From: Patescibacteria group bacterium
GTDB lineage: Bacteria > Patescibacteriota > Patescibacteriia > 2-01-FULL-39-33
Assembly: GCA_041649575.1 (NCBI GenBank)
Contig: JBAZMW010000001.1
Span: 87,944-151,943, forward strand
Length of the DNA: 64,000 bases
Reading direction: 5' to 3'
The notes under the pieces were generated by a model that was not told the DNA's origin, did no database searches, and saw only the letters and a program-made list of their open reading frames with translations. How positions within the stretch are numbered: position 1 is the stretch's first letter; every line of letters starts with the position of its first letter. The translations under genes were made by a program, and so were the position numbers. This document shows positions 1 through 56,478 of this stretch, one piece after another.

Positions 1-675
1 GTTAATTCATTTAAAAAGATTTTCACCAAACCCAAAAAGAATTTGAAAATCCTTTTGACCGGAGCCAGCAAAAACTTAGTAAAGAAATACATCGATATTT
101 TCAGACGTTCTGGCTTGAATTTATTAAGCCTGGAGACGGAGAGCTTCGCTTTAATTCGCTCGCTGGTTGGTAATGATAAATCAATAATCATGCTGGTGGA
201 TTTGGGCGCTACCACCTCCAGCATCACGGTGGTAGATGGGGGGGTGCCGGTTTTGAGTCGGAGCATCGAGGTTGGCGGCATGATGATAACCAAGGCAGTC
301 TCGGCCAGCCTCAATGTTAATCTGGAGCGAGCCGAACAGTTTAAGCAAGACATGTCTTTGGGTGGAGAAGAGGCGGACAATTCCCTGCCACAGATAGTGG
401 AAAGATCGTTTTCCTCGATTTTTAATGAAATAAAATACACCGTTAATCTGTATCAAGAGCAAAACAATAAAAAAATTGAAAAAATTATTTTGACCGGCGG
501 TTCGGCTTTACTGGGTAATTTAACGGGTTATTTGTCGAGAGCGCTTAATATTAATACTTATATTGGTGATCCCTGGTCGCGGGTCATTTTTCCCACCGAG
601 CTCAAGCCGATCTTAGACCGCCTGGGAGCCAGATTTGCCGTGGCCATCGGATTGGCAATGCGTAATATCGAATAA
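1..675 (+). CDS. pilM: type IV pilus assembly ATPase-like protein PilM, partial (5' end lies outside the window)
   Basis: The frame is open from position 1. It has an actin-like ATPase fold typical of PilM/FtsA (VDLGATTSSITV, SIEVGGMMIT). A PilN-like gene follows directly. Confidence 0.8.
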   Translation, partial: VNSFKKIFTKPKKNLKILLTGASKNLVKKYIDIFRRSGLNLLSLETESFALIRSLVGNDKSIIMLVDLGATTSSITVVDGGVPVLSRSIEVGGMMITKAVSASLNVNLERAEQFKQDMSLGGEEADNSLPQIVERSFSSIFNEIKYTVNLYQEQNNKKIEKIILTGGSALLGNLTGYLSRALNINTYIGDPWSRVIFPTELKPILDRLGARFAVAIGLAMRNIE

Positions 676-681
676 TTATTT

Positions 682-1863
682 ATGCCCAATATTAATCTTT
701 TACCAGAAGATTTGCGAGAGAAAGAAACCAAAGAATTGGAAAAATTGGCCAAACAGCCAAAGGTTTTGCAGGTGGAATTGACCGAACCAGAGAAAGAGAA
801 GCTTAAAGAAGTTATGAGCGATAAAGCAAAACCATCTTTTTGGACCAAAGTGCTTGGCCCGAAAGATAAAAAAACAGTGTCTGGGATAGAGGCCGAGGTG
901 CCAGCGGTTGCTCCCAATGAAAGTATTGATATCTTATCCTCGGCTCATAACCAAAAAGTTAGTTTTGAAAAGGCGAAAAAGCCAGTCTCTTGGTCGGGTG
1001 TTTTGGGTCCGGCCCGCTCACCTATCAGGCCGGCAGAATCAAACTCAAATACCGCGACTTTTTCCAGCCAGGAGCCGCTGAGAGATAAAAATACAGTCAG
1101 GCAAGAGATAATTAAGAATATTGAACTGACAAAACGACAAGGACAACAAAAAGTAAGCTGGTGGAGTAGAATTTTTCAACCCAGGCCCAGGAAGCCGGAG
1201 TTAATAAAATTAGCAGCGGCTCGAGAGCCAGAAAAGAAAATTGTTAACAATAAGGGCGGTTATCATCAGGCGCCTATGAGCGAAAGATCGATTTTTGATA
1301 TAAATTTAATACCGGAGGAGCTGCTGATGATAAAGAATCGGACTGCGGCTGGCAGGGTAATCTCAATTTTATTGGTTGTTATTATTGCCGGTCTCTTGGT
1401 CGGCGGTTTATACTGGTTCTTGGGTTTGAAGCAAACCGAGCTGAATAAACAACTGGCCGTTGAAGAAAAGAATTTAAGCAGTCTAAGGAATAGAATCGAC
1501 GGCTATGAACTTCAATATCAAAACAGCCTGGCCTTCCAGGACAAGCTGCTGGTTTTGAGGGATTTGCTGGTCAGTCACGTTTATTGGAGCAATTTTTTTA
1601 ATCTGCTGGAAAAATATACTTTGGATGATATTTATTATACCAACTTAACCGCTGATGTTTCGGGAGAATTTGTTTTGCCGGCGGTGGCCAGCGACTACCA
1701 GGCGGTCGCCAAACAGATAGAGGTTTTGAAAGAAGCCAGGGATTTTGTTAAAGAAGTCAAAGTCGATGATATTAAGTTGCGTTTTGACGACCGTAAAGGA
1801 GTCGACGGAGTGGCTTTCAAATTAAAAATAGTTTTAGCCGATGGTGTTTTAGCCAAGCGTTAA
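682..1863 (+). CDS. pilN: PilN-like pilus assembly protein with a long N-terminal extension
   Basis: A single TM helix (ISILLVVIIAGLLVGGLYWFLGL) is followed by a coiled coil. There are two INLLP-type PilM-binding motifs: MPNINLLPEDL at the N-terminus and INLIPEEL just before the TM helix. Confidence 0.65.
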   Translation: MPNINLLPEDLREKETKELEKLAKQPKVLQVELTEPEKEKLKEVMSDKAKPSFWTKVLGPKDKKTVSGIEAEVPAVAPNESIDILSSAHNQKVSFEKAKKPVSWSGVLGPARSPIRPAESNSNTATFSSQEPLRDKNTVRQEIIKNIELTKRQGQQKVSWWSRIFQPRPRKPELIKLAAAREPEKKIVNNKGGYHQAPMSERSIFDINLIPEELLMIKNRTAAGRVISILLVVIIAGLLVGGLYWFLGLKQTELNKQLAVEEKNLSSLRNRIDGYELQYQNSLAFQDKLLVLRDLLVSHVYWSNFFNLLEKYTLDDIYYTNLTADVSGEFVLPAVASDYQAVAKQIEVLKEARDFVKEVKVDDIKLRFDDRKGVDGVAFKLKIVLADGVLAKR

Positions 1864-1883
1864 ATTTTAAACAATAGCGATTT

Positions 1884-2504
1884 ATGAACGGTAATCTAGA
1901 AAACAAAACAAGCCAGCCTCTAAAAAAGAAAGAAGGGCGTTTTGGTTTTATTGTTAATCAATTTTTCCCGCTAATGGTGGTTGTAATTTTTCTGGCTGTT
2001 TTAATCGGCGGTTATCTATTGGTCGTCAGATGGCAATACGAGAAATTAATCAGCAGTCGAGCCGACTTGCAGCGGCTAAAAACCGGAATAATAAATTTGG
2101 AACAGAGGGAAAAATTATTAAAGAAATACCAATCGGAGGGTTTTAGGTTTTCGGAAAATGAGCAAGATTTGCTGTCTCTAGCCCTGCCCAAGGATTTTGA
2201 CTTGCCAGCTTTTATTATTCAGCTAAAAAACTTGGCCGATAATTATGGCTTCTTGATAAACAATATAAAAATAACCGAGACTGCTGCCGGAGCAGCGGGC
2301 AATAAAGTTCAGGTGGCCGAACAGGCCAACCATTTGAAAAAATTGGGAATCGAATTGGAGCTGATCGGCGGTGATTACGGTAATTGGAAAAAAGTATTAA
2401 CTGCCATGGAGTCCAGTATTATGATTTTTGATGTCACGGCTTTGGATTTTTCGGCCGACAACCCGGTTTATAAGTTGAAGCTGGTTACCTATTATTACAA
2501 TTAA
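1884..2504 (+). CDS. pilO: PilO-like pilus assembly protein
   Basis: An N-terminal TM helix is followed by a coiled coil and it sits directly after pilN. Size and topology fit PilO. Confidence 0.6.
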   Translation: MNGNLENKTSQPLKKKEGRFGFIVNQFFPLMVVVIFLAVLIGGYLLVVRWQYEKLISSRADLQRLKTGIINLEQREKLLKKYQSEGFRFSENEQDLLSLALPKDFDLPAFIIQLKNLADNYGFLINNIKITETAAGAAGNKVQVAEQANHLKKLGIELELIGGDYGNWKKVLTAMESSIMIFDVTALDFSADNPVYKLKLVTYYYN

Positions 2505-2520
2505 TTTAAACTAACGTTTT

Positions 2521-2874
2521 ATGATATCCAGGGAGAAAAAGAAGGGGTTTAATGTTTATTTAGTTTTAATAGTGGTGGTTGTTTTATTTTTGGCTTTGCT
2601 GGGCGCTAATTTTTGGCTGGTCAATAAAAGCTTTCAGCCTTTGGAAAAAAGCCAGGACAGTAATGTGGACATCGCCCTGGATAAAAGCCGGGCAGCCACG
2701 AAGATCAAGGAGGAGTTAGTTGTCAAATTAGAACAAATGGAAAAAAGGGGGAAATTCGGCAATTGGCCTTTGGTTTTGGCCGAGATCAAGCTAAGTGACA
2801 ATCGAGACAACCCTTTTGTCAAAAAGTTAGTCAAAGAAAGCGATATTATTTTAGCGCCATTATTGAAAGATTAA
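2521..2874 (+). CDS. small membrane-anchored protein in the PilP position (hypothetical)
   Basis: Single N-terminal TM helix, 117 aa, located between pilO and pilB. Confidence 0.4.
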   Translation: MISREKKKGFNVYLVLIVVVVLFLALLGANFWLVNKSFQPLEKSQDSNVDIALDKSRAATKIKEELVVKLEQMEKRGKFGNWPLVLAEIKLSDNRDNPFVKKLVKESDIILAPLLKD

Positions 2875-2927: not shown

Positions 2928-4670
2928 ATGAATCTCAACAATACCGATAGAATTAAAAACGCACTGCTTAGCAGAAATTTAATCGATCCTAAGGATTTGG
3001 CCGTAGCCGAAGCCAAGGCGATTGAGACCAACAAGAGTTTGGAGGAGATTTTAGTTCAGGAGCGATATTTTGCCAGCAAGGAATTCAATAAACTAAAAGG
3101 AGAAATTTTTAATTTGGAAACAATTGACCTGGAAGAGATAACGGCTGATCAGGCAACCTTAAACCTATTGGCTCCCAAAGTGGCAGAAAATTATCAGGCG
3201 GTGATTTTTGCCAGAGCCGGCGACGAGATAAAGGTGGGCTTGGTTGATCCCGGAAATTTTCAGGCTCATGAGGCCATAGACTTTTTGGCGACACAAAAGG
3301 GATTGAGACCAAGGTATTACGCGATATCTTTTCAGGATTTTAGATCGACCTTCAATCAGTACAGCGGCTTTAAAAAAGAAATTGGAACGGCGGTCGAGGC
3401 GGCTAAAGTCAAGTTTGCCCAGCGGGAAGGATTTTTAAAAGTAAAAGAAGAGGAAGAAGACTTCGATCAGGTAGTCAAAAGCGCGCCGGTGGCAAAAATT
3501 GTTTCGGTAATCGTAAAGCATGCTGTCGATGGCGGCGCTTCGGATATTCACATCGAGCCAGGAAGAAGCACCGGTCGGGTACGTTATCGCGTTGATGGCA
3601 ATTTGTTTAATTCGCTGACTCTGCCAGATTATCTTTATAATGCCGTGATTTCTAGAATCAAGGTTTTAGCCAACATGAAATTAGATGAAACCCGTTTGCC
3701 GCAAGATGGCAGAATCAGGTTTAAGCTCGATGATCGCGAGGTAGATTTGAGAGTCTCTGTCTTGCCGACTCTAAACCAGGAGAAAGTGGTGATGAGGGTT
3801 TTGGACACTTCGGCGGGAGTGCCCACCTTGGCCGAGCTGGGTTTTTCTGACTATCATATTCAAATAATTGAAAAAAACATTAAGAGGCCATACGGATTAT
3901 TTTTACTGACAGGCCCGACCGGGAGTGGCAAGACCACCACCCTTTATTCTGTTTTAAATATTTTGAATTCAGACCAGCAAAATATCACTACCCTTGAAGA
4001 TCCGATAGAATATTATATCGACGGGGTTAACCAGTCGCAGATTAATCCTGATATTGGATTTTCTTTTGCCTCCGGACTAAGATCGATACTGCGCCAGGAT
4101 CCCAATATTATCATGGTTGGCGAAATTCGCGACAGTGAAACCGTAGAGCTAGTGATTCACGCGGCTTTGACCGGTCATTTGGTTTTTTCCACCCTGCATA
4201 CCAACAGCGCCTGGGGAGCGATTCCCAGATTAATAGACATGAAAGCCGAACCATTTCTTTTGGCCTCGACTCTCAATCTGGTCATGGCGCAGAGGTTGGT
4301 CAGAAAAGTCTGCCCCAATTGCAAAACAGAGGCCAAGCTGCCCCCCAAAGTATCGGAAAAAATAATGCTGGAAATAAAAAAGATACCGGATGTTTTTTTA
4401 CAGTCGCTAAAGGGCAAATACGCTTTCTATCGAGGCCAGGGTTGTCAGAGTTGCAATAACACCGGCTACCTTGGTCGGACGGTGGTGGGGGAAATAATGG
4501 ATATCACCATGGAGCTAAAGGAGCTGATGGTTAAGGATTTTACTATCAAAGATATTCAGGATCAGCTCCAGAGACAAAACTACATCAACCTAGCTCAAGA
4601 CGCCATTCTCAAGGCTTTGCAGGGACTGACAACGATAGACGAAGTACTTCGAGTTTCTCAAGATCAATAA
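2928..4670 (+). CDS. pilB: type IV pilus assembly ATPase PilB/GspE family
   Basis: Walker A GPTGSGKTTT, Asp box IIMVGEIRD, His box GHLVFSTLHT, tetracysteine CPNC...CQSC, and a GspE N-terminal domain. Confidence 0.93.
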   Translation: MNLNNTDRIKNALLSRNLIDPKDLAVAEAKAIETNKSLEEILVQERYFASKEFNKLKGEIFNLETIDLEEITADQATLNLLAPKVAENYQAVIFARAGDEIKVGLVDPGNFQAHEAIDFLATQKGLRPRYYAISFQDFRSTFNQYSGFKKEIGTAVEAAKVKFAQREGFLKVKEEEEDFDQVVKSAPVAKIVSVIVKHAVDGGASDIHIEPGRSTGRVRYRVDGNLFNSLTLPDYLYNAVISRIKVLANMKLDETRLPQDGRIRFKLDDREVDLRVSVLPTLNQEKVVMRVLDTSAGVPTLAELGFSDYHIQIIEKNIKRPYGLFLLTGPTGSGKTTTLYSVLNILNSDQQNITTLEDPIEYYIDGVNQSQINPDIGFSFASGLRSILRQDPNIIMVGEIRDSETVELVIHAALTGHLVFSTLHTNSAWGAIPRLIDMKAEPFLLASTLNLVMAQRLVRKVCPNCKTEAKLPPKVSEKIMLEIKKIPDVFLQSLKGKYAFYRGQGCQSCNNTGYLGRTVVGEIMDITMELKELMVKDFTIKDIQDQLQRQNYINLAQDAILKALQGLTTIDEVLRVSQDQ

Positions 4671-4703: not shown

Positions 4704-5096
4704 ATGCCTAAAAAAGAAAAAGCGATATCGATTTTGATTGTGGAAGACGACATTTTTTTGGCCGATCTTTATCGGACTAAATTTGAGTTGGAGGGATTTA
4801 AGGTTTTTGTGGGTTATGACGGTGAAAAGGGGCTGGAGTTGGCTAGTAAAAATTTACCCCAAGTCATTCTTCTGGACTTAGTTTTGCCAAAGATGAGCGG
4901 TTTCCAGGTTTTGGAAGCTCTAAAAAACGATAAAAGACTAAGAGAAGTCCCGGTGATTCTCTTGACCAACCTAAGCCAAAAGGCAGACGTGGAAAAGGGT
5001 TTGAGTCTGGGGGCTAATGACTATCTAATCAAAGCCCATTTTATGCCCTCGGAAGTAGTGAATAAAATTAAAAAATTAGTTGACAGGGCGGTTTAA
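4704..5096 (+). CDS. single-domain response regulator (CheY-like receiver; PilG/PilH-like)
   Basis: Receiver-domain motifs are present: the acidic pair in IVEDD, the phospho-acceptor Asp in ILLDLVLPKMSG, and LTN...K. There is no output domain. Confidence 0.85.
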   Translation: MPKKEKAISILIVEDDIFLADLYRTKFELEGFKVFVGYDGEKGLELASKNLPQVILLDLVLPKMSGFQVLEALKNDKRLREVPVILLTNLSQKADVEKGLSLGANDYLIKAHFMPSEVVNKIKKLVDRAV

Positions 5097-5099: not shown

Positions 5100-6179
5100 A
5101 TGGAATCTTCGCAATACTTGTTGGTCAAGGGTATCTTAATTGAAGCCGTGACTCGGGGAGCGGTTGATTTGCATTTTTCCGTGGGCAACAACCCGGTTTT
5201 GCGAGTTAACGGGGAACTGGTTGTTTTACAGGATAAAGACTTGATCACGCAGGATTTTATGGAAAAGCTGATGGCTTCGCTACTGACAGTAGAACAGAGA
5301 AAAAAAGTAGAAGTCGACCGGGAGATAGTTCTGACCCACAACTTTGACAAAGATTTAAGATTCAAAATAAACGTCTTTTATCAGCGGGGTTTTTTATCGG
5401 CCACCCTGCGTCATATTCCGGCCAAAATCCCGACTATCGGTTCCCTGGGGCTTAATTCGGTGATCAGGGAGCTAACCAAATTGAAAAGTGGTTTGGTCAT
5501 TATTTCCGGGCCTTTCGGCTCAGGCAGAACAACCACGGCCATCGCCATGCTTGAGGAGATAAATCAAACCAGAAAAGAGTACATCATTACCATTGAAGAT
5601 CCGATCGAATACCTTTTTGCAAATAAAGAAAGCATTGTTGAACAGAGAGAGGTTGGGCGAGATACCAAATCATTTTTGGATGCCCTGCATTATTTTCAGG
5701 AGGAAGACGGCGATATTTTGTTTCTCGGTGAAATGGGCGACAGTAAAACCATTCCCATGGTTTTGGAAATAGCCCGGGGCAGCTCGCTGGTTTTGACGGT
5801 CTTGGGCGCTGCCTCCGCTGTTAATACGGTGGCCAGCATTTTGGACATTTTTCAAAGCTTTGATCAGGAAAGGGTCAAGGATTTATTGGCTACCTCCTTA
5901 AGAGCGATAATTTGTCAGAAGATGGTGCCAAAGGTGGGTGGTGGCAGTTTGGTGGTACAGGAAATCATGCTGGTTAATGATGCTGTTAAATCAATTATTC
6001 TCGGCGGCAGCAATCAACAGTTAGACAACATCATTCAGACTTCAAGAAAAGAAGGCATGATTTCTTTTGATCAGGCGTTGGCTCAATTGGTTAATGAAAG
6101 AAAAATTCTTTTAAAGGATGCCATTGACAATGCTTCCAACCGTTTGGCGTTAGAAAGTTTGCTTAGAGAAAAATATTAA
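5100..6179 (+). CDS. pilT: PilT-like retraction ATPase paralog with degenerate catalytic motifs
   Basis: Overall PilT architecture (IITIEDPIEY, REVGRDT). The Walker A motif is GPFGSGRTTT (Lys to Arg), GEMRD is GEMGD, and both His-box histidines are absent (ARGSSLVLTVLGAAS). Confidence 0.8.
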   Translation: MESSQYLLVKGILIEAVTRGAVDLHFSVGNNPVLRVNGELVVLQDKDLITQDFMEKLMASLLTVEQRKKVEVDREIVLTHNFDKDLRFKINVFYQRGFLSATLRHIPAKIPTIGSLGLNSVIRELTKLKSGLVIISGPFGSGRTTTAIAMLEEINQTRKEYIITIEDPIEYLFANKESIVEQREVGRDTKSFLDALHYFQEEDGDILFLGEMGDSKTIPMVLEIARGSSLVLTVLGAASAVNTVASILDIFQSFDQERVKDLLATSLRAIICQKMVPKVGGGSLVVQEIMLVNDAVKSIILGGSNQQLDNIIQTSRKEGMISFDQALAQLVNERKILLKDAIDNASNRLALESLLREKY

Positions 6180-6197: not shown

Positions 6198-7409
6198 ATG
6201 CCTATTTTTTCCTATAAAGCCAGAAACAGTCGAGGCCGTTTGATCGAGGGGGTAGTCGATGCGGTTACGGCAGACGCGGTAGCCAACTTGTTGGTGGAAA
6301 AAAATTTAGTAGTAACAAATATCGAAAGGCAGGGTGGTGAATTTTTAAAAAGCCACGGTCTGTTTTTTTTCAGAAGGGTCAAAAACAAAGAACTGGTTTT
6401 TTTCTTTCGTCAGTTGGCGGTAATGATTGAGGCTAATTTGCCGATAGTCAGGGCTTTAAAAATTTTAGTGCGGCAAACCGGTGATAAAAAATTAAAAAGG
6501 ATCATCGCGACGGTGGCCGACGAGGTTGACGGTGGCTCGAAGCTATCGGAGGCGATGGCCAGCTTCCCGGAAGTTTTTGGTGTTTTTTACATTAATATGA
6601 TTGGTTCCGGCGAGACCTCCGGTCGTTTGAGCGAGGTGGTTAATTATCTGGCTGATCAGCAAGAAAAAGATTACGATTTACAATCAAGAGTTAAGGGTGC
6701 CCTGATCTACCCGGCTTTTATAATAGTCAGTCTGCTGGTGGTGGCTTTTATTATCATGACTTTTGTTATTCCCCAGATCTCTTCCTTACTTAAAGAATCG
6801 AATGTGACCCTGCCTTTGACTACCAGGATTCTGATGGCGGTCTCTGATTGGTTGAGAGCCTGGTGGTGGCAGGCTATAATAGCGATCATTCTACTAATTG
6901 GTGGCTTAAGCGTTTACGGCAGGTCAGAGACCGGCGGCCATTTTTTTGACTGGCTAAAATTAAGAGTACCTATTTTTGGAAAGATTTTTAGAGAAATTTA
7001 TATTGTCAGAATAACTCGAAGCTTAAACACCCTCTTGGCTGGCGGTGTGCCGGTAGCCAGGGCCTTAGAGGTGGTAAAGGAGGTTGTGGGCAATAAAATC
7101 TATAAAGAAATATTGGAACAGGCCATTAAAGAAGTTGAAGAGGGCAATCCCTTGGCTGACAGCTTGTTGGTTTTCGAGAGTTATTTGCCCTTGGCGGTGT
7201 CACAAATGGTCAGTATTGGCGAAGAGACTGGCAAATTAGAGGAAGTGACTGGTAAAATAGCCGATTTTTACTCACGAGAGGTTGATGCCAGCACCAGGAA
7301 CTTAACGGTCTTAATAGAACCGGTAGTGATGATAATTTTGGGCGTGGGCATAGCTTTTTTCATCATGGCCGTGATCACGCCCATGTGGCAATTATCGGCG
7401 TCGATGTAG
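6198..7409 (+). CDS. pilC: type IV pilus platform protein PilC/GspF family
   Basis: Two GspF repeats, a polytopic membrane protein, and the conserved position after pilB/pilT. Confidence 0.9.
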   Translation: MPIFSYKARNSRGRLIEGVVDAVTADAVANLLVEKNLVVTNIERQGGEFLKSHGLFFFRRVKNKELVFFFRQLAVMIEANLPIVRALKILVRQTGDKKLKRIIATVADEVDGGSKLSEAMASFPEVFGVFYINMIGSGETSGRLSEVVNYLADQQEKDYDLQSRVKGALIYPAFIIVSLLVVAFIIMTFVIPQISSLLKESNVTLPLTTRILMAVSDWLRAWWWQAIIAIILLIGGLSVYGRSETGGHFFDWLKLRVPIFGKIFREIYIVRITRSLNTLLAGGVPVARALEVVKEVVGNKIYKEILEQAIKEVEEGNPLADSLLVFESYLPLAVSQMVSIGEETGKLEEVTGKIADFYSREVDASTRNLTVLIEPVVMIILGVGIAFFIMAVITPMWQLSASM

Positions 7410-7592: not shown

Positions 7593-7985
7593 ATGAAACA
7601 AAAAGGTTTTACTTTGATTGAACTTTTGGTGGTAATTGCCATTATTGGCTTGTTATCTTCTTTGGCAATTATCTCCCTAAACAGCGCCAGAAACAAGGCT
7701 TACGACGCTCAAGTTAAGAGCGATTTGGTACAAGTCAGAAATTCGGCTGAGATTTACTATGATACTAACGGTTCTTATACTGGTTTTACTGTACCAACGC
7801 AGCTGGTAGCGCCTAATTGCAGCGATGACGCCGCTTACGTGGTGACTATTTCAGCCGATGGCACGGCTTATGCCTCTTGGGCCGACTTATGCGCCGATAC
7901 GGACAACGATTATTGTGTTGATTCGGTCGGGGTGTCAAAGGTGACCGCTGGCCATGTGGCCGATGGGGCTACCGCCTGCCCATAA
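7593..7985 (+). CDS. pilA: type IV major pilin (prepilin with class III signal)
   Basis: MKQKG/FTLIELLVVIAIIGLL N-terminal cleavage/methylation motif, C-terminal Cys pairs, its own promoter and terminator. Confidence 0.88.
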   Translation: MKQKGFTLIELLVVIAIIGLLSSLAIISLNSARNKAYDAQVKSDLVQVRNSAEIYYDTNGSYTGFTVPTQLVAPNCSDDAAYVVTISADGTAYASWADLCADTDNDYCVDSVGVSKVTAGHVADGATACP

Positions 7986-8525: not shown

Positions 8526-9308
8526 ATGTTTTATTTTTTGATTTTTGTTTTTGGTTTAGTGATTGGCAGTTTTTTAAATGTAGTTATTTTTCGTTTACGC
8601 AGCGGGGAGAAGATTGTTAATTCTCGCTCCCACTGCCGGAGCTGTAAGAAGCAGCTGACCTTTAAGGACCTAATTCCGCTGGTAAGTTTTGTTTGGCAAA
8701 AAGGACGTTGCCGTTATTGCGGGGCAAAAATTTCTTGGCAGTACCCATTGGTGGAGCTGGTTACCGGTCTGTTGTTCGTGGCGGCAACTTTTAATATTAT
8801 CGGTAACTTGGGAGCGGGCATGTTATTTTACAATTCGGATATTTTTTTTAATTGGTTAAAAAGTTTGGTTTTTATCTCTTTTCTGGTGGTAATTTTTGTT
8901 TATGATTTGAAGTGGTTGCTTATTTTAGACAAGATAACTTTGCCGGCAGGGATTCTGGCCTTGGCTTTCAATTTGTTTTTGGGAATTAGCTGGAAGAGTC
9001 TGCTGCTGGGGGTTGTTGTCGGCCTGGGATTTTTTCTAATCCAATTTTTGGTTTCCCGGGGCCGGTGGATCGGCGGCGGCGACTTAAGGCTGGCGGTGGT
9101 AATGGGGTTGATGCTGGGCTGGCCCAAGATTCTAGTGGCTCTGTTTTTCGCTTATATAATCGGCGCCCTGATCGCTTTGATTCTAATGGCTTGGGGGAAG
9201 CGCGGTCTGAAATCACAGGTTCCGTTTGGCACCTTCTTGTCGCTGGGCACGTTGGTAGCTATTTTTTGGGGCGAAGAAATAATCAAATGGTACTTAAGTC
9301 TCGTTTGA
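8526..9308 (+). CDS. pilD: prepilin peptidase (A24 family)
   Basis: Tetracysteine CRSC...CRYC, a GGGDLRL aspartyl-protease motif, polytopic membrane protein. Confidence 0.92.
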   Translation: MFYFLIFVFGLVIGSFLNVVIFRLRSGEKIVNSRSHCRSCKKQLTFKDLIPLVSFVWQKGRCRYCGAKISWQYPLVELVTGLLFVAATFNIIGNLGAGMLFYNSDIFFNWLKSLVFISFLVVIFVYDLKWLLILDKITLPAGILALAFNLFLGISWKSLLLGVVVGLGFFLIQFLVSRGRWIGGGDLRLAVVMGLMLGWPKILVALFFAYIIGALIALILMAWGKRGLKSQVPFGTFLSLGTLVAIFWGEEIIKWYLSLV

Positions 9309-9317
9309 ACAAATTTA

Positions 9318-9859
9318 TGCCAAAACAAAAAATGACCGCCGGTTTCACTTTGATAGAAATTTTGGTAGTTATAGCCATCATGGGCGCGCTCTCTTCTTTT
9401 TTAATAATCAATTTTCGAGTTAACGAAGACAGCCGTAAATTTAAGAACGACTCTCTGCTGGTGATGGACGGTTTTAAAAAGGCCCAAACCATGGCTTTGG
9501 CCAGCCAGCTGGTAGAGGGTCGGGCGCCGGTCGGTTACGCGGTGTTATTGGACGATTGCTCTTTTGGCTCCTGCTCTTACGAAATCGCCTCTTATGGCGG
9601 CGATAAAAAAGACTTTAGCAACCAAAGTGATTTTAAAACAATTGAAAAAGTAAATTTAAGCGAGGAAGTAGAGCTAAAAGCCAAAAATTCGCGGATTATT
9701 TTTTTCCCGCCGCGGGCCGAATCGGTAATTTTGGTCAATGGAGAAATTACCAACTATCTGCCGGTTGAGTTGCGCCACAAAAAAGGCAAACTTTTGCCTA
9801 TCTGCGTGACAGTAAGCGGCATGTCGGGCAGAATTGATTCGAGTCCCTGTTCCATGTAG
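9318..9859 (+). CDS. minor pilin / pseudopilin (FimT/GspH-like)
   Basis: TAGFTLIEILVVIAIMG prepilin N-terminus. The internal ATG at 9318 is preferred over the ORF-track start at 9065, which overlaps pilD. Confidence 0.75.
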
Positions 9860-9863
9860 TTTT

Positions 9864-10535
9864 ATGATTTCAAAAATAAAAAAATTTTTTAGCAACCAAA
9901 CCGGCCAGAGTCTTTTGGAACTGATTGTGGCCATGGCCATTATTAATGTTGGTTTGTTTGCGGTCTGGGCGCTCTTTCTGTCTAACTTTTCAGGCGAACA
10001 AGAAGCCAAGGCCAGAATCGTTGGAGTCAATCTGGCCAGAGAAGGAGTGGAAGCGGTAAAAAATATCAGAGATTCTAATTGGCTTAGGCTGGAAGACAAT
10101 AAGCGCTGTGGCCAAAATCTTTGCAGTTGGGATTATGGCCTGGTCGGCCCTGGCGGCGATGACACCGCTATTTTAGTGGATCTGTTTGAAACCAGCGGTG
10201 AAGCCAGATTGGATTTTGGTCCCGATAGTTTAAACGACAATTCAACAAAGATTTTTATCGATCAATCTCTGGCCAAGGGTTTTTTTATCCAGCACCCCAG
10301 TGGTAGCGCCCAGACCGGCCAGCCGACGATTTATCGTCGGCTGATAACTCTTGATGATATTTGCTGCTCTGATATTAACGGAGACGGTGATTGCGACGAC
10401 AATGCGTTTAAGGCTTGTTCGGAGACGACCGGCTCGTTGAAAGTCGGCCTGGAGGTCAGCTCCAGGGTGCAGTGGCTGCTTAACGGTAAAAGCAGGGAAG
10501 TGGTGGCGGAAGACCATTTGTTTAATTGGAAATAA
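9864..10535 (+). CDS. minor pilin (PilV-like)
   Basis: GQSLLELIVAMAII prepilin-type N-terminal motif followed by a hydrophobic helix. Confidence 0.7.
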   Translation: MISKIKKFFSNQTGQSLLELIVAMAIINVGLFAVWALFLSNFSGEQEAKARIVGVNLAREGVEAVKNIRDSNWLRLEDNKRCGQNLCSWDYGLVGPGGDDTAILVDLFETSGEARLDFGPDSLNDNSTKIFIDQSLAKGFFIQHPSGSAQTGQPTIYRRLITLDDICCSDINGDGDCDDNAFKACSETTGSLKVGLEVSSRVQWLLNGKSREVVAEDHLFNWK

Positions 10536-10546
10536 TTTAAACCTCA

Positions 10547-11143
10547 ATGAAATTTTTTAGAATAACTTCGGGCAACAATTCAAAACAAGGCTTTACTCTG
10601 GTGGAGGTGCTGGTGGCAGTGAGTATTTTTAGTATTTTGTCGGTGGTGGTGTCTTCGATTTTTTTGAACGTCAATGGCTTGCAGCGCAATACAGCCAGCT
10701 ATCAGCGATTGCAGAACGAAGGCCGTTATATGTTGGAAAAATTGGCGCGCGAAGTGAGATCGAGAGAAATAAGCTATCCACTGGAAAATCCTCAAGACCA
10801 CCTTTTTTTCAAAAAAGACGAAAAAGGCAATTATTTGAGAATTTGCTGGGTGGACGACTGGTTAAAATATTATCTTGACGCCGATAATTCTTTGGATAAC
10901 GAAGAGAATTTGAACAACTGCCGAACCAAGGGACAGCCGCTTAATGCTCATGACGTCAGCGTGACCGAGGCCAGTTTTTTTATTCTGCCGGTCTTGGAAG
11001 ATCGCTGGGGCGAGAAGCCGCTTTCTAACATCCAGACTCGGGCGACCGTTCTTCTGAAAATAAAAAACAATTCAGGCAACAGCAAAGATCAAAAGGAACT
11101 GACGCTACAAACCACAATCTCCAGCAAAATTTATAAAAGATGA
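10547..11143 (+). CDS. minor pilin (PilW-like)
   Basis: QGFTLVEVLVAVSIFSIL prepilin N-terminus. Confidence 0.7.
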   Translation: MKFFRITSGNNSKQGFTLVEVLVAVSIFSILSVVVSSIFLNVNGLQRNTASYQRLQNEGRYMLEKLAREVRSREISYPLENPQDHLFFKKDEKGNYLRICWVDDWLKYYLDADNSLDNEENLNNCRTKGQPLNAHDVSVTEASFFILPVLEDRWGEKPLSNIQTRATVLLKIKNNSGNSKDQKELTLQTTISSKIYKR

Positions 11144-11144
11144 C

Positions 11145-14118
<2,974 letters not shown>

Positions 14119-23694: not shown

Positions 23695-25164
23695 CTAAAA
23701 ACAAATGATCCGCGATAGCTCAATGGTAGAGCAACCGGCTGTTAACCGGTAGGTTGCTGGTTCGAATCCAGCTCGCGGAGCCAAGAAACTAGATACGAAC
23801 TCATTTTTTGAAGATGAGAGTGTTCGCTCGCCCAGCCCCGCCAATGGCGGGGCTGGCCTTCGCTCCGCGACGGCTTCGCCGTCGTTTTGGCGGGAAATGA
23901 AGCGAATTTTAATGCTTTCGGGGGAATAGAAAATGTTTGAAAGAAACTTTTTAGCAAAAAGATTTCTTTCAATTCCTTTGGTAGTTTTGAGTCCGGTAAT
24001 GAAAAATTTTAGAGTGTCCGAAATGCTTTCGGTGGAAAATTTAGAGCATCCATCCGTTAGTTCGTATCCAGCGCGGTGTCCCGCTTGTTCGTCGTTGTTT
24101 AAGCGAAAAACAAGATTTTCAACATAATTTTTATCAACCGAAATGCGCTCTAAATTTTCCAAACAAAAATCTTCTAATCGTTCGGCGGACACTTGTTTTA
24201 CTGAACACGCTTGCCAGTCCTGTTTCATCGTGGCGGTGCAACGATAGTAATAATAGCGGTTCAATTTTCCAGCGATATATTTGTTGGTAAAACAAGAAGT
24301 CATATTTGAACCACACTCTTCACATTTTATAAGTCCGCCGAACAGGAAGTTTTTGTACACTCTAAAATTTTTCCGCTTTTCCTTATGAATTTTTTGAGCA
24401 AGGGCAAAAATTTCTTCTGAAATTATCGGCTTGTGAATACCTTGATAAATTTCGCCATTGTGTAAAACCTTACCTATGTAGATAACATTTCGCAAAATGT
24501 GGCTGATATTTGTTTTAGAGAAATTTTTGCCTAACTTATTTTTGATACCTCTATCTTTCAGCATTTGGTAAGTTTTCGCCGTTGAGCCGGTTTCAATATA
24601 AGTTTCAAAAATTGATTTTATTTCTTCCGCTTCTTTTTGGTGCGGGATAAGTTTCTTATCTTCTCGCTTGTAGCCATAAGGAGTTAGCCCGCCGTTTGCG
24701 AGCCCCTTTTTCGCGCGCTCCAACATTTTGTCTTTTGTTCTCTCGCTGGTTAGCTCTCGCTCAAATTGAGAAAAAGTGAGCATAATATTGCGAAGCAATC
24801 TTCCGGCGGGCGTTGAAGTATCAAACCTTTCCGTAATGGAAATAAAATCAATTTTTGCTTGCTCAAAAAATTCTATCAGTTGGTAAAAATCTTTTGGAGA
24901 ACGAGTGAGCCGATCGATTTTGTAGACCAAAACCACATCAATTTTTTCTTTTTTCAAATCAGCAAGTAATTCCTGCAAGGCGGGACGTTGTAAAATTGCG
25001 CCAGAAAATCCAGCGTCGTTATAAACTTTAAAAACCTGCCAATCATTTTGACTTTCGATAAACGACCGGATTTTCTGCTCTTGCGCTTCGCAAGATGAAA
25101 ATTCTTTTTCCGCTTGGTTATCAGTTGAAACTCTTGTATAAATGGCGCAATTTTTCATATTCAT
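23695..25164 (-). CDS. large serine recombinase/integrase. The ORF reads through the att arm and the antisense tRNA; the functional core is about 23930-25164.
   Basis: N-terminal catalytic motif AIYTRVSTDNQ, a recombinase domain, and a zinc ribbon (CEECGS...YYYYRC) followed by a coiled coil. The C-terminal AGFEPATYRLTAG is translated antisense tRNA. Confidence 0.88.
   Translation of the reverse strand: MNMKNCAIYTRVSTDNQAEKEFSSCEAQEQKIRSFIESQNDWQVFKVYNDAGFSGAILQRPALQELLADLKKEKIDVVLVYKIDRLTRSPKDFYQLIEFFEQAKIDFISITERFDTSTPAGRLLRNIMLTFSQFERELTSERTKDKMLERAKKGLANGGLTPYGYKREDKKLIPHQKEAEEIKSIFETYIETGSTAKTYQMLKDRGIKNKLGKNFSKTNISHILRNVIYIGKVLHNGEIYQGIHKPIISEEIFALAQKIHKEKRKNFRVYKNFLFGGLIKCEECGSNMTSCFTNKYIAGKLNRYYYYRCTATMKQDWQACSVKQVSAERLEDFCLENLERISVDKNYVENLVFRLNNDEQAGHRAGYELTDGCSKFSTESISDTLKFFITGLKTTKGIERNLFAKKFLSNIFYSPESIKIRFISRQNDGEAVAERRPAPPLAGLGERTLSSSKNEFVSSFLAPRAGFEPATYRLTAGCSTIELSRIICF
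23709..23783 (+). tRNA. tRNA-Asn (anticodon GTT)
   Basis: Acceptor TCCGCGA/TCGCGGA, anticodon loop CTGTTAA, T-loop GGTTCGAATCC, CCA encoded. Its 3' end forms the attL core of the element. Confidence 0.88.
23778..23927 (+). repeat. attL arm (P') of the integrative element. It is the inverted copy of 25202-25353.
   Basis: 150 bp with 1 mismatch to the reverse complement of 25202-25353. It begins with GGAGCCAA, which overlaps the tRNA-Asn 3' end. Confidence 0.9.
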
Positions 25165-25201
25165 AAATTTATATTATTAGTTTTTAAAAAGAAAAAATTG
25201 A

Positions 25202-25555
25202 ATTCCCCCGAAAGCATTAAAATCCGCTTCATTTCCCGCCAAAACGACGGCGAAGCCGTCGCGGAGCGAAGGCCAGCCCCGCCATTGGCGGGGCTGGGCG
25301 AGCGAACACTCTCATCTTCAAAAAATGAGTTCGTATCTAGTTTCTTGGCTCCCGAATTAAAACCTTCGCAAACTTTTGAAATTATTTTGCCAAATCTGAT
25401 ACACAAATCCAAAAAGCGAAACCTGAAATGATACGCCCCGCCACTATTTTTCTGGGGCAAAGGAGGCGGGGCGACGGACTCGCCCGCGCAGAGGAGGGGT
25501 CTGGGGAGGAATCCGCGCGGGCTTCGGCTTTCCTTTTTGAAAAAATCGGCGGCTA
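25202..25555 (+). repeat. composite attP-like repeat (inverted): arm a 25202-25353, core around 25345-25353, arm b 25345-25555
   Basis: The left part is the reverse complement of 23778-23927 and the right part is the reverse complement of 28523-28733 (211/211). It contains GC-rich hairpins. Confidence 0.9.
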
Positions 25556-25633
25556 AAAATTGAAGAAAAATAAAATTCATGTTAGTATAGTTGTGAGGGT
25601 TAAGTTCAACGCTCATACTTATACTATCATACT

Positions 25634-25843
25634 ATGGAAAGTAATAAAAAACAAATTGGGGATAAAATTAAAGCCGTCCGCACAAAACAAGGATTGACGC
25701 AGGATGCCCTTGCTCGAAAATGTGATATTCCCTACACAACACTGACAAAAATTGAATCAAATGTCATAACCAAGCCGTCAATCCAAACAGTTGTTAAGAT
25801 TGCCACAGGGTTGGGCATTTCAGTAGATGAACTTTTGAAATGA
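25634..25843 (+). CDS. XRE-family helix-turn-helix transcriptional regulator
   Basis: HTH_3 motif (LTQDALARKCDIPYTTLTKIESN). Upstream are direct repeats of CATACT/TATACT. Confidence 0.85.
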   Translation: MESNKKQIGDKIKAVRTKQGLTQDALARKCDIPYTTLTKIESNVITKPSIQTVVKIATGLGISVDELLK

Positions 25844-25844
25844 T

Positions 25845-27302
25845 ATGAAATTAACCTCGCTTACAATAAAAAATTTTCGAAGTATTGAAGAGGAAACTTT
25901 TGATATTACAGAAGTTGATAACACCTATACTTTTACGCTCATAGGCATTAACGAATCCGGGAAAAGTAGTTTTTTGAAAGCAGTTTCGTTGGTTGATAAT
26001 GATGATGAAAAAGTTATTTTCCCTAAAGATTATTTTGAGGAAACAGAATCAATTAGCATTGTTTTGAATTACGAGCTTGAAACACAAGAAGAAAAAGACC
26101 TAAAAAGTGCTCTTACAGAAAAGGGATTTGAGAAAGACATTTTATCAAAAATAAAGGTCGAACAGGTTTCTGTTTGTGCGACTTTTGAACCGGTGGCAAA
26201 TGCACCAAAGAAAGTTTTTGATCAGATTACATTTCAGCAAAAAGTTTTTGACGACTACACCTTACTTGGCGACAAACCTACTAAAAAAGACCCACAACAA
26301 ACACAGGAGGATTTTGACATTGAGAAGTATTTTGAAGTGCATTTGCCGAAATATTTTTGGAAAATTGCTCACAGGATTGTTTTTTGGAAATCTGATAGTA
26401 AGCACCTTATCAATGAACAAATAAACCTTGATACATTTGCTGCTAACCCTGAAGAAACATCAATCCCATTGATAAATTGCTTTGAGTTGGCTGGTGTGGC
26501 ACAAGATCAAATTGTCTCGCAAGTTGCTAAACTAAAAACTGACGATGCTGAGATAGATAATCTTGAAGAAAAGCTTGGAGACAAAGTAACTGCCCATATC
26601 AAGAAAGTTTGGTCTAATCATCCAATCAAAATAAAATTTAAGATAAATAATTCATTGCTAACACTTCTCGTTGAGGATGATAAAGTAAAATACAAATCAA
26701 AGACAACCGAGCAGAGAAGTGATGGCTTTCGGCAGTTTATTTCATTCCTCCTAACAATTTCGGCAGAAAGCGCGACAAATCAGCTCTCTAATTCTTTGCT
26801 ATTACTTGATGAGCCGGAAACCCATTTGCATCCCCAAGCACAAGAGTATTTGAAAGACGAATTGATTAAGATAACGAGAAATGACGAAAACAACATCGTC
26901 TTTTTTGCCACGCACTCAAACTACATGATTGATAAGGAACATATTGAACGATGTTTTAGAGTTTCCAAACAATCAAACCGAAGGACAAAATTGGAAAAAT
27001 TTCAAGCAGGTCAGAAATCATATGCGGAGGTAAACTATGAAGTTTTTAATATCGTATCTTCTGACTACCACAACGAGCTATATGGATATTTAGAAGATGT
27101 AGACAAAACAAAATTAGATGGATTAGATAAAACGAAAAAGTGGAAGAATAAGAAAAATAATGGTGTAGAGACAGATGTCTCATTGGCAACTTATATTCGA
27201 CATTCAATCCATCATCCCGAAAATACACTTAATGCAAAATTCACTCCCGAAGAATTGGAGGGGTCAATTGAAAGTTTAAGAAAATTGAAATATGGAAACT
27301 AA
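25845..27302 (+). CDS. AAA_15/AAA_21 (OLD-like, SMC/RecF-like ABC) ATPase without a Toprim domain
   Basis: N-terminal LTIKNFRSI...GINESGKSS, Walker B/D-loop LLLLDEPETHLHPQAQ, and His-loop FFATHS. The ~120 aa C-terminal region is uncharacterised. Confidence 0.85.
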   Translation: MKLTSLTIKNFRSIEEETFDITEVDNTYTFTLIGINESGKSSFLKAVSLVDNDDEKVIFPKDYFEETESISIVLNYELETQEEKDLKSALTEKGFEKDILSKIKVEQVSVCATFEPVANAPKKVFDQITFQQKVFDDYTLLGDKPTKKDPQQTQEDFDIEKYFEVHLPKYFWKIAHRIVFWKSDSKHLINEQINLDTFAANPEETSIPLINCFELAGVAQDQIVSQVAKLKTDDAEIDNLEEKLGDKVTAHIKKVWSNHPIKIKFKINNSLLTLLVEDDKVKYKSKTTEQRSDGFRQFISFLLTISAESATNQLSNSLLLLDEPETHLHPQAQEYLKDELIKITRNDENNIVFFATHSNYMIDKEHIERCFRVSKQSNRRTKLEKFQAGQKSYAEVNYEVFNIVSSDYHNELYGYLEDVDKTKLDGLDKTKKWKNKKNNGVETDVSLATYIRHSIHHPENTLNAKFTPEELEGSIESLRKLKYGN

Positions 27303-56410: not shown

Positions 56411-56478
56411 CGATAAATTATTAAAGGTTTAGCCTGATTTATTTAATTATAGAGCATTATTGATTATTTTTCTAGGTT

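What the first reader, a model, noticed from the sequence alone, without database searches (positions are those of the whole stretch)
5100..6179. PilT paralog with Walker A Lys to Arg and loss of both His-box histidines
The motif reads GPFGSGRTTT instead of GPTGSGK(S/T)T. GEMRD is GEMGD, and ETGH...TLHT is replaced by RGSS...TVLGA. These residues are needed for ATP hydrolysis in PilT/PilB-family hexamers. The protein is probably a catalytically impaired regulatory or structural PilT-like subunit. It is paired with an orphan CheY-like gene immediately upstream.
Basis: seen in the sequence. Interest (0 to 1): 0.55.

Follow-up and report, generated by a model that had tools for sequence, protein, structure and literature searches.

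The report
Catalytically remodelled PilT in pilus operon
The gene sits where a type IV pilus operon normally encodes its retraction motor PilT, but it lacks most residues PilT uses to burn ATP; this remodelled form is conserved across a group of ultra-small (Patescibacteria) bacteria, always next to a small phospho-receiver gene, so it probably acts as a switch or very slow motor rather than a normal one.

Summary
ORF 5100-6179 (+) encodes a full-length, confidently folded PilT-family protein. An ungapped alignment to solved PilTs shows these changes:
- Walker A: GPFGSGRTTT (Lys to Arg, Thr to Phe).
- Walker B region: GEMGD.
- His box: both histidines lost (ARGSSLVLTVLGAASA).

It is not a decaying gene and probably not a spare paralog. 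It occupies the slot pilB-REC-[pilT]-pilC, where other Patescibacteria carry a canonical PilT.

It belongs to a conserved subfamily of 91 clusters with its own near-fixed signature:
- F139, R143 and E201 (a charge reversal of the invariant Arg195), plus E223.
- No His-box histidine in any member.
- The P-loop glycines, Ser/Thr, both Asp-box Glu and a Walker B carboxylate are kept.

Within this subfamily the protein evolves about as slowly as PilB and PilC. A REC-only response regulator lies directly upstream in 10/10 such operons, against 11/58 canonical ones.

Best reading (inferred, untested): a nucleotide-binding PilT with crippled ATP turnover. It would compete with PilB at the PilC platform under control of the phosphorylated receiver.

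I could not determine whether a canonical PilT exists elsewhere in this genome. The closest precedent is Bdellovibrio PilT1. I rate it a new variant of a known kind, of moderate interest.

The parts
5100..6179 (+). PilT-like gene (PilT*), 359 aa, end includes the stop codon
   Evidence: Searches give the ORF. Pfam T2SSE E 6.9e-22. PDB PilT 2ewv E 5e-78. AF2 model pLDDT 93.7, pTM 0.90. Foldseek top hits are GmPilT4 6ojx/6ojy, TM about 0.9. TIGR01420 scores 317.5 bits against a cutoff of 319.1.
5508..5537 (+). Walker A / P-loop GPFGSGRTTT (residues 137-146): Lys to Arg143, Thr to Phe139
   Evidence: alignment. In clade 1, R143 is in 90/91 clusters and F139 in 89/91. Canonical PilTs have K in 72/72.
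5586..5612 (+). Asp box ITIEDPIEY (residues 163-171), intact
   Evidence: E166 and E170 are 91/91 in clade 1. GmPilT4 E164, which contacts Mg, corresponds to E170.
5700..5702 (+). Glu201, replacing the invariant inter-subunit Arg195 of PilT
   Evidence: Canonical PilTs have R in 72/72; clade 1 has E in 89/91.
5706..5741 (+). Walker B region DGDILFLGEMGD (residues 203-214): Glu211 kept, Arg to Gly213
   Evidence: In clade 1 an acidic residue sits at 210 or 211 in 90/91 clusters; the window protein is the only 'GE'.
5772..5819 (+). Former His box ARGSSLVLTVLGAASA (residues 225-240): Glu to Arg226, Thr to Gly227, His to Ser229, His to Gly236
   Evidence: No His at either position in 0/91 clade-1 or 0/29 clade-2 clusters.
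5982..6005 (+). AVKSIILG, degenerate counterpart of the PilT AIRNLIRE helix (residues 295-302)
4704..5096 (+). REC-only response regulator (130 aa) with D15/D16, D58, T88 and K110
   Evidence: Pfam Response_reg E 1.4e-22. Key residues are conserved across 20 operon RECs. Directly upstream of PilT* in 10/10 degenerate operons.
2928..4670 (+). PilB extension ATPase with canonical motifs
   Evidence: Pfam T2SSE E 6e-124 plus MshEN. GPTGSGKTT, GEIRD and TGHLVFSTLH are present.
6198..7409 (+). PilC platform protein
   Evidence: Pfam T2SSF E 3.8e-61.
43..675 (+). C-terminal part of PilM (gene begins upstream of the window)
   Evidence: Pfam PilM_2. The full 376-aa gene is seen in L085.
682..2874 (+). 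Three genes in the pilN / pilO / small-protein positions; none has a Pfam hit
   Evidence: The order is conserved in L001, L003 and L085.
7593..7985 (+). Major pilin candidate (N_methyl)
8526..9308 (+). Prepilin peptidase PilD
   Evidence: Pfam A24_N_bact and Peptidase_A24.
9287..12113 (+). Four minor-pilin-like genes (9287-9859, 9864-10535, 10547-11143, 11145-12113)
   Evidence: N_methyl hits. Gene calls come from L085.

Best explanation
This is the PilT of the main type IV pilus operon of a Patescibacterium. It belongs to a lineage-wide subfamily in which the retraction motor has been remodelled into a nucleotide-binding protein with crippled ATP turnover.

**Shown.**
- The fold is an intact two-domain PilT.
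- The gene occupies the pilB-REC-pilT-pilC slot.
- The P-loop glycines, Ser/Thr144, both Asp-box Glu, Arg87, Arg183 and a Walker B carboxylate are conserved.
- Several residues that canonical PilT needs are replaced: the Walker A Lys, the gamma-phosphate-contacting His, the proposed proton-relay residues (Thr133, Thr221, His230) and the inter-subunit Arg195. They are replaced by a new, near-fixed set (Phe139, Arg143, Glu201, Glu223, Gly227, Ser229).

**Inferred.**
- The hexamer still binds Mg-nucleotide but cannot run the fast hydrolysis cycle, coupled through the closed interface, that powers forceful retraction.
- It acts by occupancy. It competes with PilB for the PilC/PilM platform, ending extension. 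The pilus is then either locked or left to depolymerise slowly without a motor.
- The phosphorylation state of the co-conserved REC protein biases which hexamer is engaged.
For: **Identity and fold**
- Ungapped motif alignment to solved PilTs.
- AF2 model with pLDDT 93.7; Foldseek TM about 0.9 to GmPilT4.

**Conservation, not decay**
- All 120 best homologs are intact and share the changes.
- Clade-1 counts: R143 90/91, F139 89/91, E166/E170/R87/R183 about 100%, His-box His 0/91.
- Nine residues invariant or nearly so (68/72 or more) in 72 canonical PilTs are replaced, several by a new fixed residue, such as R195 to E in 89/91.
- Identity of window proteins to those of L005, L006 and L001: PilT* 61-63%, PilB 62-65%, PilC 54-59%. 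PilT* is therefore under similar constraint.

**Operon position**
- Canonical PilT occupies the same slot in other Patescibacteria.
- REC lies directly upstream in 10/10 degenerate operons against 11/58 canonical ones (Fisher p = 1.2e-6, not corrected for phylogeny).
- The REC phospho-acceptor residues are conserved.

**Published work**
- PaPilT E204A and H229A abolish twitching; the paper proposes a proton relay through H230, T221 and T133 (PMC6858323).
- ATPase-dead PilT K136A still works as a platform for PilU (PMC9815625). PilT bridges PilU to the machine (10.1101/2025.10.30.685630).
- CheY-like regulators bind the pilus motor in Synechocystis (10.1101/2021.06.11.447907).

**Own knowledge**
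- Walker A Lys-to-Arg mutants of RecA-fold ATPases, such as RecA K72R, typically bind ATP but hydrolyse it very poorly.
Against: - There are no biochemical data.
- The window protein keeps the canonical catalytic Glu211. In clade 1, 90/91 clusters keep a carboxylate at 210 or 211. Together with the strictly conserved P-loop and Asp box, this is what one would expect if some hydrolysis were still selected.
- The invariant Arg143 could be a functional substitute for Lys rather than a lesion.
- Binding to PilC and to REC is not tested.
- The REC association is not corrected for shared ancestry, and REC also occurs with canonical PilT.
- The grouping of all His-less PilTs in the NJ tree may be long-branch attraction.
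Confidence: 0.5

Rival explanations
1. It is still a working retraction ATPase that uses an alternative catalytic arrangement. Arg143 would take the place of Lys, Glu211 (or Glu210 in relatives) would be the catalytic base, and Ser/Asp or Arg residues would replace the histidines. Retraction would be slower or regulated differently.
For: - The P-loop is strictly conserved, including Arg in 90/91 clusters, together with both Asp-box Glu and a Walker B carboxylate in 90/91.
- The new signature is fixed rather than drifting.
- Clade 2 has Arg at the first His position in 24/29 clusters.
- The gene is the only PilT-like gene in 64 kb that carry two pilus loci.
Against: - In P. aeruginosa PilT, single changes of the catalytic Glu or of His229 abolish function (PMC6858323). 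Here the Lys, both His, Thr133, Thr221 and Arg195 are all changed.
- The exact catalytic Glu position is E in only 46/91 clade-1 clusters.
- No PilT with both His-box histidines among the 72 genome-derived PilTs or the best 150 representatives carries Arg in Walker A.
Confidence: 0.25
2. It is a non-catalytic adaptor that docks a second, active ATPase encoded elsewhere in the genome (a canonical PilT or PilU-like protein) onto PilC. The precedents are ATPase-dead PilT with PilU in Vibrio, and the Bdellovibrio pair of in-operon PilT1 and distant PilT2.
For: - V. cholerae PilT K136A supports PilU-driven retraction (PMC9815625).
- PilT bridges PilU to the machine (10.1101/2025.10.30.685630).
- Bdellovibrio PilT1 lies in a pilB-pilT1-pilC operon and lacks Walker A, while PilT2 is canonical and lies elsewhere (PMC4237445).
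Against: - No other PilT/PilU-like gene exists in the 64-kb window.
- Contig-length fingerprints of long clade-1 contigs (up to 802 kb) do not recur among other His-less PilT types.
- Patescibacterial genomes are small and usually show a single pilT in the operon.
- The rest of this genome could not be scanned, so absence is not shown.
Confidence: 0.15
3. It is a decaying relic of pilT (a pseudogene in progress) with no function.
For: Several residues known to be essential in PilT are lost. TIGR01420 scores just below its cutoff.
Against: - Intact full-length ORFs occur in 91 clade-1 clusters of the protein database (clustered at 90% identity), 51-68% identical to the window protein.
- Divergence equals that of PilB and PilC between the same genomes.
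- The replaced positions are fixed to new residues.
- The structure model is of high confidence.
Confidence: 0.02

Closest known systems
Canonical PilT retraction ATPase (P. aeruginosa PilT, Aquifex PilT 2ewv, Geobacter PilT4 6ojx)
   Same: - Same length and two-domain fold (TM about 0.9, 36-39% identity).
- Same operon neighbours, pilB and pilC.
- Intact Asp box, P-loop glycines and Ser/Thr.
- Arg87 and Arg183 retained.
   Different: - Walker A Lys to Arg and Thr to Phe.
- Both His-box His lost.
- Thr221 to Gly, Glu220 to Arg, Arg195 to Glu, Arg of GEMRD to Gly.
- AIRNLIRE degraded to AVKSIILG.
- TIGR01420 scores 317.5 bits against a cutoff of 319.1, while a canonical Patescibacterial PilT scores 437.
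Bdellovibrio bacteriovorus PilT1 (Bd1510)
   Same: A PilT homolog inside a pilB-pilT-pilC operon that lacks a recognisable Walker A and other PilT motifs. It was proposed to be regulatory rather than a motor (PMC4237445).
   Different: - Bdellovibrio has a canonical PilT2 elsewhere; for this genome that is unknown.
- Here the P-loop is retained with Arg.
- The degenerate form here is a large conserved subfamily with a REC partner.
- I did not compare the sequences directly.
ATPase-dead PilT (K136A) acting as platform for PilU in Vibrio cholerae
   Same: A PilT that cannot hydrolyse ATP still engages the machine and is functionally useful (PMC9815625; 10.1101/2025.10.30.685630).
   Different: That is an engineered mutant that needs PilU. 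No PilU-like gene is visible here.
CheY-like regulators of pilus motors (Synechocystis PATAN-CheY PixE/PixG; P. aeruginosa PilG/PilH)
   Same: A receiver-domain protein is coupled to type IV pilus motor choice (10.1101/2021.06.11.447907). PilG/PilH is cited from my own knowledge.
   Different: Here the regulator is a bare 130-aa REC encoded between pilB and pilT. No Che-type kinase is nearby, and no interaction has been tested.
Other His-less PilT-like proteins of Patescibacteria: clade 2 (for example P0111, in-operon) and the PilM-adjacent type (P0117, Kerfeldbacteria)
   Same: No His-box histidines, Phe/Tyr in the P-loop, and the same size. Clade 2 sits in the same pilB-REC-pilT-pilC slot.
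   Different: - Only 43-46% identical to the window protein.
- Clade 2 has Arg/Asn at the His positions and keeps AVRSLIREG.
- The P0117 type keeps Walker A Lys and the Glu, and lies beside pilM outside the operon.

Membership tests
PilT/PilU family type IVa pilus ATPase (TIGR01420; Pfam T2SSE) | Sequence similarity over the full length, at or above the curated HMM cutoff | tested here: inconclusive
   Pfam T2SSE scores 78 bits against a cutoff of 24.9, which is met. TIGR01420 scores 317.5 bits against a cutoff of 319.1, just below, while a canonical Patescibacterial PilT scores 437.
PilT/PilU family type IVa pilus ATPase | Two-domain PilT fold (N-terminal PAS-like domain plus RecA-like C-terminal domain, no MshEN/N1 domain) | tested here: met
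   AF2 model pLDDT 93.7. Foldseek TM 0.88-0.92 to GmPilT4, PaPilT and PilU.
PilT/PilU family type IVa pilus ATPase | Walker A GxxGxGK[ST] with the lysine | tested here: not met
   The motif is GPFGSGRTTT, with Arg143. Lys is present in 72/72 canonical PilTs.
PilT/PilU family type IVa pilus ATPase | Asp box (EDPIE) with both glutamates | tested here: met
   The motif is ITIEDPIEY. E166 and E170 are invariant in the clade.
PilT/PilU family type IVa pilus ATPase | Walker B with catalytic Glu (GEMRD) | tested here: inconclusive
   Glu211 is present in this protein, but the motif is GEMGD. In the clade, E211 occurs in only 46/91 clusters, although an acidic residue sits at 210 or 211 in 90/91.
PilT/PilU family type IVa pilus ATPase | His box with two histidines (ETGHLVFxTLHT) | tested here: not met
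   The motif is RGSSLVLTVLGA, with Ser229 and Gly236. His occurs in 0/91 clade-1 clusters.
PilT/PilU family type IVa pilus ATPase | AIRNLIRE helix (specific to PilT) | tested here: not met
   The sequence is AVKSIILG; only the A-[IV]-[KR]-x-[IL]-I pattern remains.
PilT/PilU family type IVa pilus ATPase | Encoded with pilB and pilC in a type IV pilus locus | tested here: met
   pilM-N-O-x-pilB-REC-pilT*-pilC-pilin-pilD. The same order is seen in L001, L003, L005, L006, L008, L055 and L062.
PilT/PilU family type IVa pilus ATPase | Mg-ATP hydrolysis and hexamer formation; pilus retraction in vivo | not testable with these tools
   Needs purified protein or genetics.
Degenerate in-operon PilT (Bdellovibrio PilT1 type) | Degenerate PilT in the pilB-pilT-pilC operon, plus a canonical PilT elsewhere in the genome | tested here: inconclusive
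   The first half is met.
CheY-like single-domain response regulator (the upstream gene) | REC fold with acidic pocket DD, phospho-acceptor Asp, and conserved Thr and Lys; no output domain | tested here: met
   Pfam Response_reg covers residues 10-121 of 130 aa. D15/D16, D58, T88 and K110 are conserved in all operon RECs.

The most novel reading that the evidence does not exclude
A whole set of Patescibacterial lineages (Falkowbacteria, Buchananbacteria, Kerfeldbacteria and relatives) may have no conventional retraction motor at all. They would have converted PilT into an ATP-binding, essentially non-hydrolysing 'clutch', gated by a phosphorylated REC protein. Pilus retraction or locking in these episymbionts would then be governed by competitive displacement of PilB and by motor-independent depolymerisation. 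The fixed Arg143/Glu201/Phe139 set would create a new kind of nucleotide-sensing interface in the PilT/VirB11 superfamily.
Probability: 0.3. Interest if true: 0.7.

Novelty: new variant of a known kind. Interest (0 to 1): 0.5.

Why it matters
- **Role of the pilus.** Type IV pili are thought to be central to how Patescibacteria (CPR) attach to hosts, move and take up DNA. Work on Saccharibacteria assumes a conventional PilT retraction motor (PMC11623550).
- **What is different here.** In a sizeable part of the radiation the operon's only visible PilT lacks the Walker A lysine, both His-box histidines and the inter-subunit arginine, yet it is strongly conserved with a new signature. That would mean pilus dynamics in these organisms follow different rules.
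- **A natural experiment.** The subfamily offers a conserved natural variant for asking which PilT functions need ATP hydrolysis and which need only occupancy of the platform.
- **Regulation.** It also points to a simple REC-to-motor regulatory link in genomes that otherwise have very few signalling genes.
- **Annotation.** These proteins are currently named inconsistently as PilT/PilU, 'T2SS/T4P/T4SS ATPase' or TadA. They should not be taken as evidence of powered retraction.

Tried and rejected
1. **Alignment offset.** Rejected. HMMER alignments to four solved PilTs are ungapped through all motifs.
2. **Pseudogene or relic.** Rejected on conservation, on divergence equal to PilB and PilC, and on the new fixed residues.
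3. **A canonical PilT in the window.** phmmer of PilT* against all ORFs of 80 aa or more finds only the two PilB genes.
4. **A second PilT in the same genomes.**
   - I then compared 'longest contig' lengths as fingerprints between clade 1, clade 2 and the PilM-adjacent type, using a second protein search with P0117. No shared contigs appeared. This says nothing about canonical PilTs, which could not be listed.
5. **Histidine kinase partner.** Pfam scans covered the pilus-operon genes, the ORFs of 150 aa or more from 14 to 64 kb, and the two upstream genes in L085. None found a kinase.
6. **Literature.** Searches for a described degenerate PilT in CPR found none. The Saccharibacteria papers report conserved Walker A/B, and the M. 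xanthus and Geobacter PilT paralogs all keep the four motifs.
7. **REC-PilT* complex prediction.** Not attempted.
8. **dN/dS.** Not computed. The only homologous DNA in hand is about 61-63% identical at protein level, so synonymous sites are saturated.
9. **NJ tree.** It groups all His-less proteins together, but I do not rely on it for a single origin because of the long branches.
Full report
**1. What is at the coordinates**

ORF 5100-6179 (+) encodes a 359-aa protein. It lies in a compact type IV pilus operon on the + strand:
- pilM (43-675, cut by the window edge);
- three genes without Pfam hits in the pilN / pilO / small-protein positions (682-2874);
- pilB (2928-4670);
- a 130-aa REC-only response regulator (4704-5096);
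- the PilT-like gene;
- pilC (6198-7409);
- a pilin (7593-7985);
- pilD (8526-9308);
- four minor-pilin-like genes (to 12113);
- then ligA.

The REC stop codon lies 3 nt before the PilT-like ATG. The exact protein is on record as a Patescibacteria-group MAG protein that NCBI names only 'ATPase, T2SS/T4P/T4SS family'.

**2.

phmmer against all PDB sequences gives PilT structures as best hits: Aquifex 2ewv at E 5e-78, then Geobacter PilT4, P. aeruginosa PilT and PilU. The alignments run without gaps through every motif.

| Motif | Window protein | Aquifex PilT |
|---|---|---|
| Walker A | GPFGSGRTTT | GPTGSGKSTT |
| Asp box | ITIEDPIEY | ITIEDPIEY |
| Walker B region | FLGEMGD | FVGEMRD |
| His box | ARGSSLVLTVLGAASA | AETGHLVFGTLHTNTA |
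| AIRNLIRE helix | AVKSIILG | AIRNLIRE |

The two PilB genes of the same window keep GPTGSGKTT, GEIRD and TGH...H. The changes are therefore specific to this gene.

An AlphaFold model built on 68 homologs is confident (pLDDT 93.7, pTM 0.90). It superposes on Geobacter PilT4 with TM about 0.9.

NCBI's PilT/PilU model TIGR01420 scores 317.5 bits, just under its 319.1-bit cutoff. A canonical Patescibacterial PilT scores 437.

**3. It is a conserved subfamily, not a one-off or a relic**

All 120 best database homologs, named as Falkowbacteria, Buchananbacteria, Portnoybacteria or Patescibacteria group, show the same kind of degeneration.

Clade 1 (91 clusters, 51-68% identical to the window protein):
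- Walker A Arg143 is present in 90/91 clusters and Phe139 in 89/91.
- Asp-box Glu166 and Glu170, Arg87 and Arg183 are essentially invariant.
- Neither His-box position is ever His.

Comparison with Geobacter PilT4, using the interface and active-site residues listed in PMC6858323. These residues are invariant or nearly so (68/72 or more) in 72 canonical PilTs taken from GTDB genomes, and in clade 1 they are replaced, often by a new near-fixed residue:

| GmPilT4 residue | Clade 1 |
|---|---|
| K137 | R |
| T133 | F |
| R195 | E (89/91) |
| T217 | E (82/91) |
| E220 | R (53/91) |
| T221 | G |
| H223 | S/A |
| H230 | S/T/A |
| R296 | varied |

This is a coherent remodelling of the closed inter-subunit interface and of the proton relay that the paper proposes.

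A Walker B carboxylate is kept in 90/91 clusters, but mostly one residue earlier (EE, EQ or DK). The window protein is the only clade-1 member with the canonical Gly-Glu.

Rate of change, measured as identity between the window proteins and those of L005, L006 and L001:

| Protein | Identity |
|---|---|
| PilT* | 61-63% |
| PilB | 62-65% |
| PilC | 54-59% |
| REC | 75-78% |

The gene is therefore under purifying selection comparable to its neighbours.

**4. Where the subfamily sits**

- An exhaustive HMMER search of 1.84 billion representatives finds 31,412 PilT-family proteins.
- Among the best 150, roughly fifty single-domain representatives lack both histidines. About 60% of these have Arg in Walker A.
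- None of the PilTs carrying both histidines has Arg there.
- In GTDB species genomes, the slot pilB-[REC]-pilT-pilC in most Patescibacteria holds a fully canonical PilT (GPxGxGKSTT, GEMRD, AETGHLVFSTLHTNSA, AIRNLIRE). This covers records titled Saccharibacteria, Paceibacterota/Parcubacteria, WWE3, Moranii- and Wolfebacteria, and others.
- The same slot holds the His-less form in L001, L003, L005, L006, L008, L012, L034, L055, L062 and the window.
- PilB and PilC of the degenerate operons are also the closest to the window's PilB and PilC. This fits vertical inheritance of the whole operon.
- The gene is therefore best seen as a positional ortholog of PilT, not as an extra paralog.
- A third His-less type (P0117; Kerfeldbacteria and others) keeps Lys and Glu and lies beside pilM outside the operon.
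- A neighbour-joining tree puts all His-less proteins together. I treat that as provisional because the branches are long.

**5. The REC partner**

- The upstream protein has the full receiver signature (D15/D16, D58, T88, K110). These residues are conserved in all 20 operon RECs examined.
- It is directly upstream of PilT in 10/10 degenerate operons, against 11/58 canonical ones (Fisher p = 1.2e-6, not corrected for phylogeny).
- The REC gene is thus an older Patescibacterial operon feature that is universally retained where PilT is degenerate.
- I found no histidine kinase among the pilus-operon genes, the ORFs of 150 aa or more from 14 to 64 kb, or the two genes in the 4.9 kb upstream.

**6. 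How it most likely works**

Shown:
- an intact PilT fold;
- retained Mg-nucleotide ligands (P-loop, Ser/Thr144, Glu170);
- loss of the Lys, of the gamma-phosphate His, of the relay Thr residues and of the trans Arg;
- operon position;
- the REC linkage.

Established knowledge:
- E204A and H229A each abolish PilT function in P. aeruginosa (PMC6858323).
- Walker A Lys-to-Arg in RecA-fold ATPases generally preserves binding but cripples hydrolysis (my own knowledge, for example RecA K72R).
- ATPase-dead PilT still engages the machine in Vibrio (PMC9815625; 10.1101/2025.10.30.685630).
- Motor-independent retraction exists (10.1101/2021.03.09.434644, listed).
- CheY-like proteins bind pilus motors in Synechocystis.

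Inference (confidence about 0.5):
- PilT* is a nucleotide-binding hexamer with little or very slow turnover.
- It acts by occupying the PilC/PilM platform in competition with PilB.
- This terminates extension and either locks the pilus or lets it depolymerise passively.
- REC phosphorylation sets the balance.

Rivals:
- A still-active but unusual ATPase (0.25). This is supported by the conserved carboxylate and P-loop.
- A docking adaptor for a second ATPase encoded elsewhere, as in Bdellovibrio (PilT1/PilT2, PMC4237445) or Vibrio PilT-PilU (0.15).
- A relic (0.02).

**7. What could not be settled**

Whether this genome also has a canonical PilT or PilU is unknown.
- Only the 64-kb window and 4.9 kb upstream were readable. 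No other PilT-like gene is there, although a second, PilT-less pilus locus is.
- Contig-length fingerprints show no second His-less PilT on the long clade-1 contigs. Canonical PilTs could not be enumerated this way.

**8. Novelty and verdict**

- I found no paper describing this subfamily.
- The Saccharibacteria work reports conventional Walker boxes in TM7x PilT.
- The Geobacter and Myxococcus paralogs all keep the four motifs.
- The nearest precedent is the single Bdellovibrio PilT1 case.
- I classify the finding as a new variant of a known kind: a conserved, REC-linked, His-less, Arg-P-loop branch of the PilT family that occupies the retraction-motor slot.
- Interest is 0.5. It would be higher if complete genomes show that no canonical retraction ATPase accompanies it.

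Noticed in passing
window 54281-61995 (- strand): A second type IV pilus locus with no PilT-like gene. It holds pilB2 (60265-61995, canonical motifs), pilC2 (59191-60261), a GspH-like pseudopilin (58700-59182), an N_methyl pilin (57707-58288), a PilX_N protein (56479-57780), pilM2 (55352-56410), pilN2 (54795-55355) and pilO2 (54281-54814). This mirrors the T4P-1/T4P-2 split described for Saccharibacteria TM7x.
   Followed up: partly
window 23695-27302: A low-GC stretch (0.38-0.39 against about 0.44) holds a large serine recombinase (23695-25164, -), a small ORF with no hit (25161-25616, -) and an AAA_15/AAA_21 (AbiEii-like) ATPase (25845-27302, +). It looks like a small integrated mobile or defence islet next to rpoD and dnaG.
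   Followed up: no
P0121-P0127, P0129, P0136, P0216 (representative search): These are tandem PilT-PilT fusion proteins of about 700-1000 aa. In several, the C-terminal half is canonical and the N-terminal half is partly or fully degenerate; for example, the N-terminal half of P0129 reads GNRGSGRSCT and has no His box. They may be built-in heteromeric rings.
   Followed up: no
L004 8001-10156, L007, L011: A third His-less PilT type (GxFGSGKTTT, Glu kept) is encoded directly upstream of a pilM gene, away from pilB and pilC. It occurs in Kerfeldbacteria-like genomes, including contigs of 1.1-1.3 Mb.
   Followed up: partly
L001 13608-13955 (Falkowbacteria operon): A bAvd / 23S_rRNA_IVP family gene sits among the minor pilin genes of the orthologous Falkowbacteria operon. 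It could be a remnant or part of a diversity-generating retroelement acting on pilins. It is absent from the window.
   Followed up: no
L085 1-4418 (just upstream of window position 1); also L001 1-2482 and L003 1-2319: Two large genes (about 1000 aa and about 600 aa) with no Pfam hit are conserved directly upstream of pilM in three operons. They may be uncharacterised pilus-machine or cell-envelope components.
   Followed up: no
window 37376-37945 (-): A small leucine-rich-repeat protein (189 aa; LRR_8 and LRR_4). This could be relevant to host attachment in an episymbiont.
   Followed up: no
window 9065-9859 (+): The mechanical ORF starts at a GTG inside pilD. The gene call on the same contig starts at window 9287 (190 aa) and has an N_methyl prepilin motif. 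The true gene is therefore the shorter minor pilin.
   Followed up: yes
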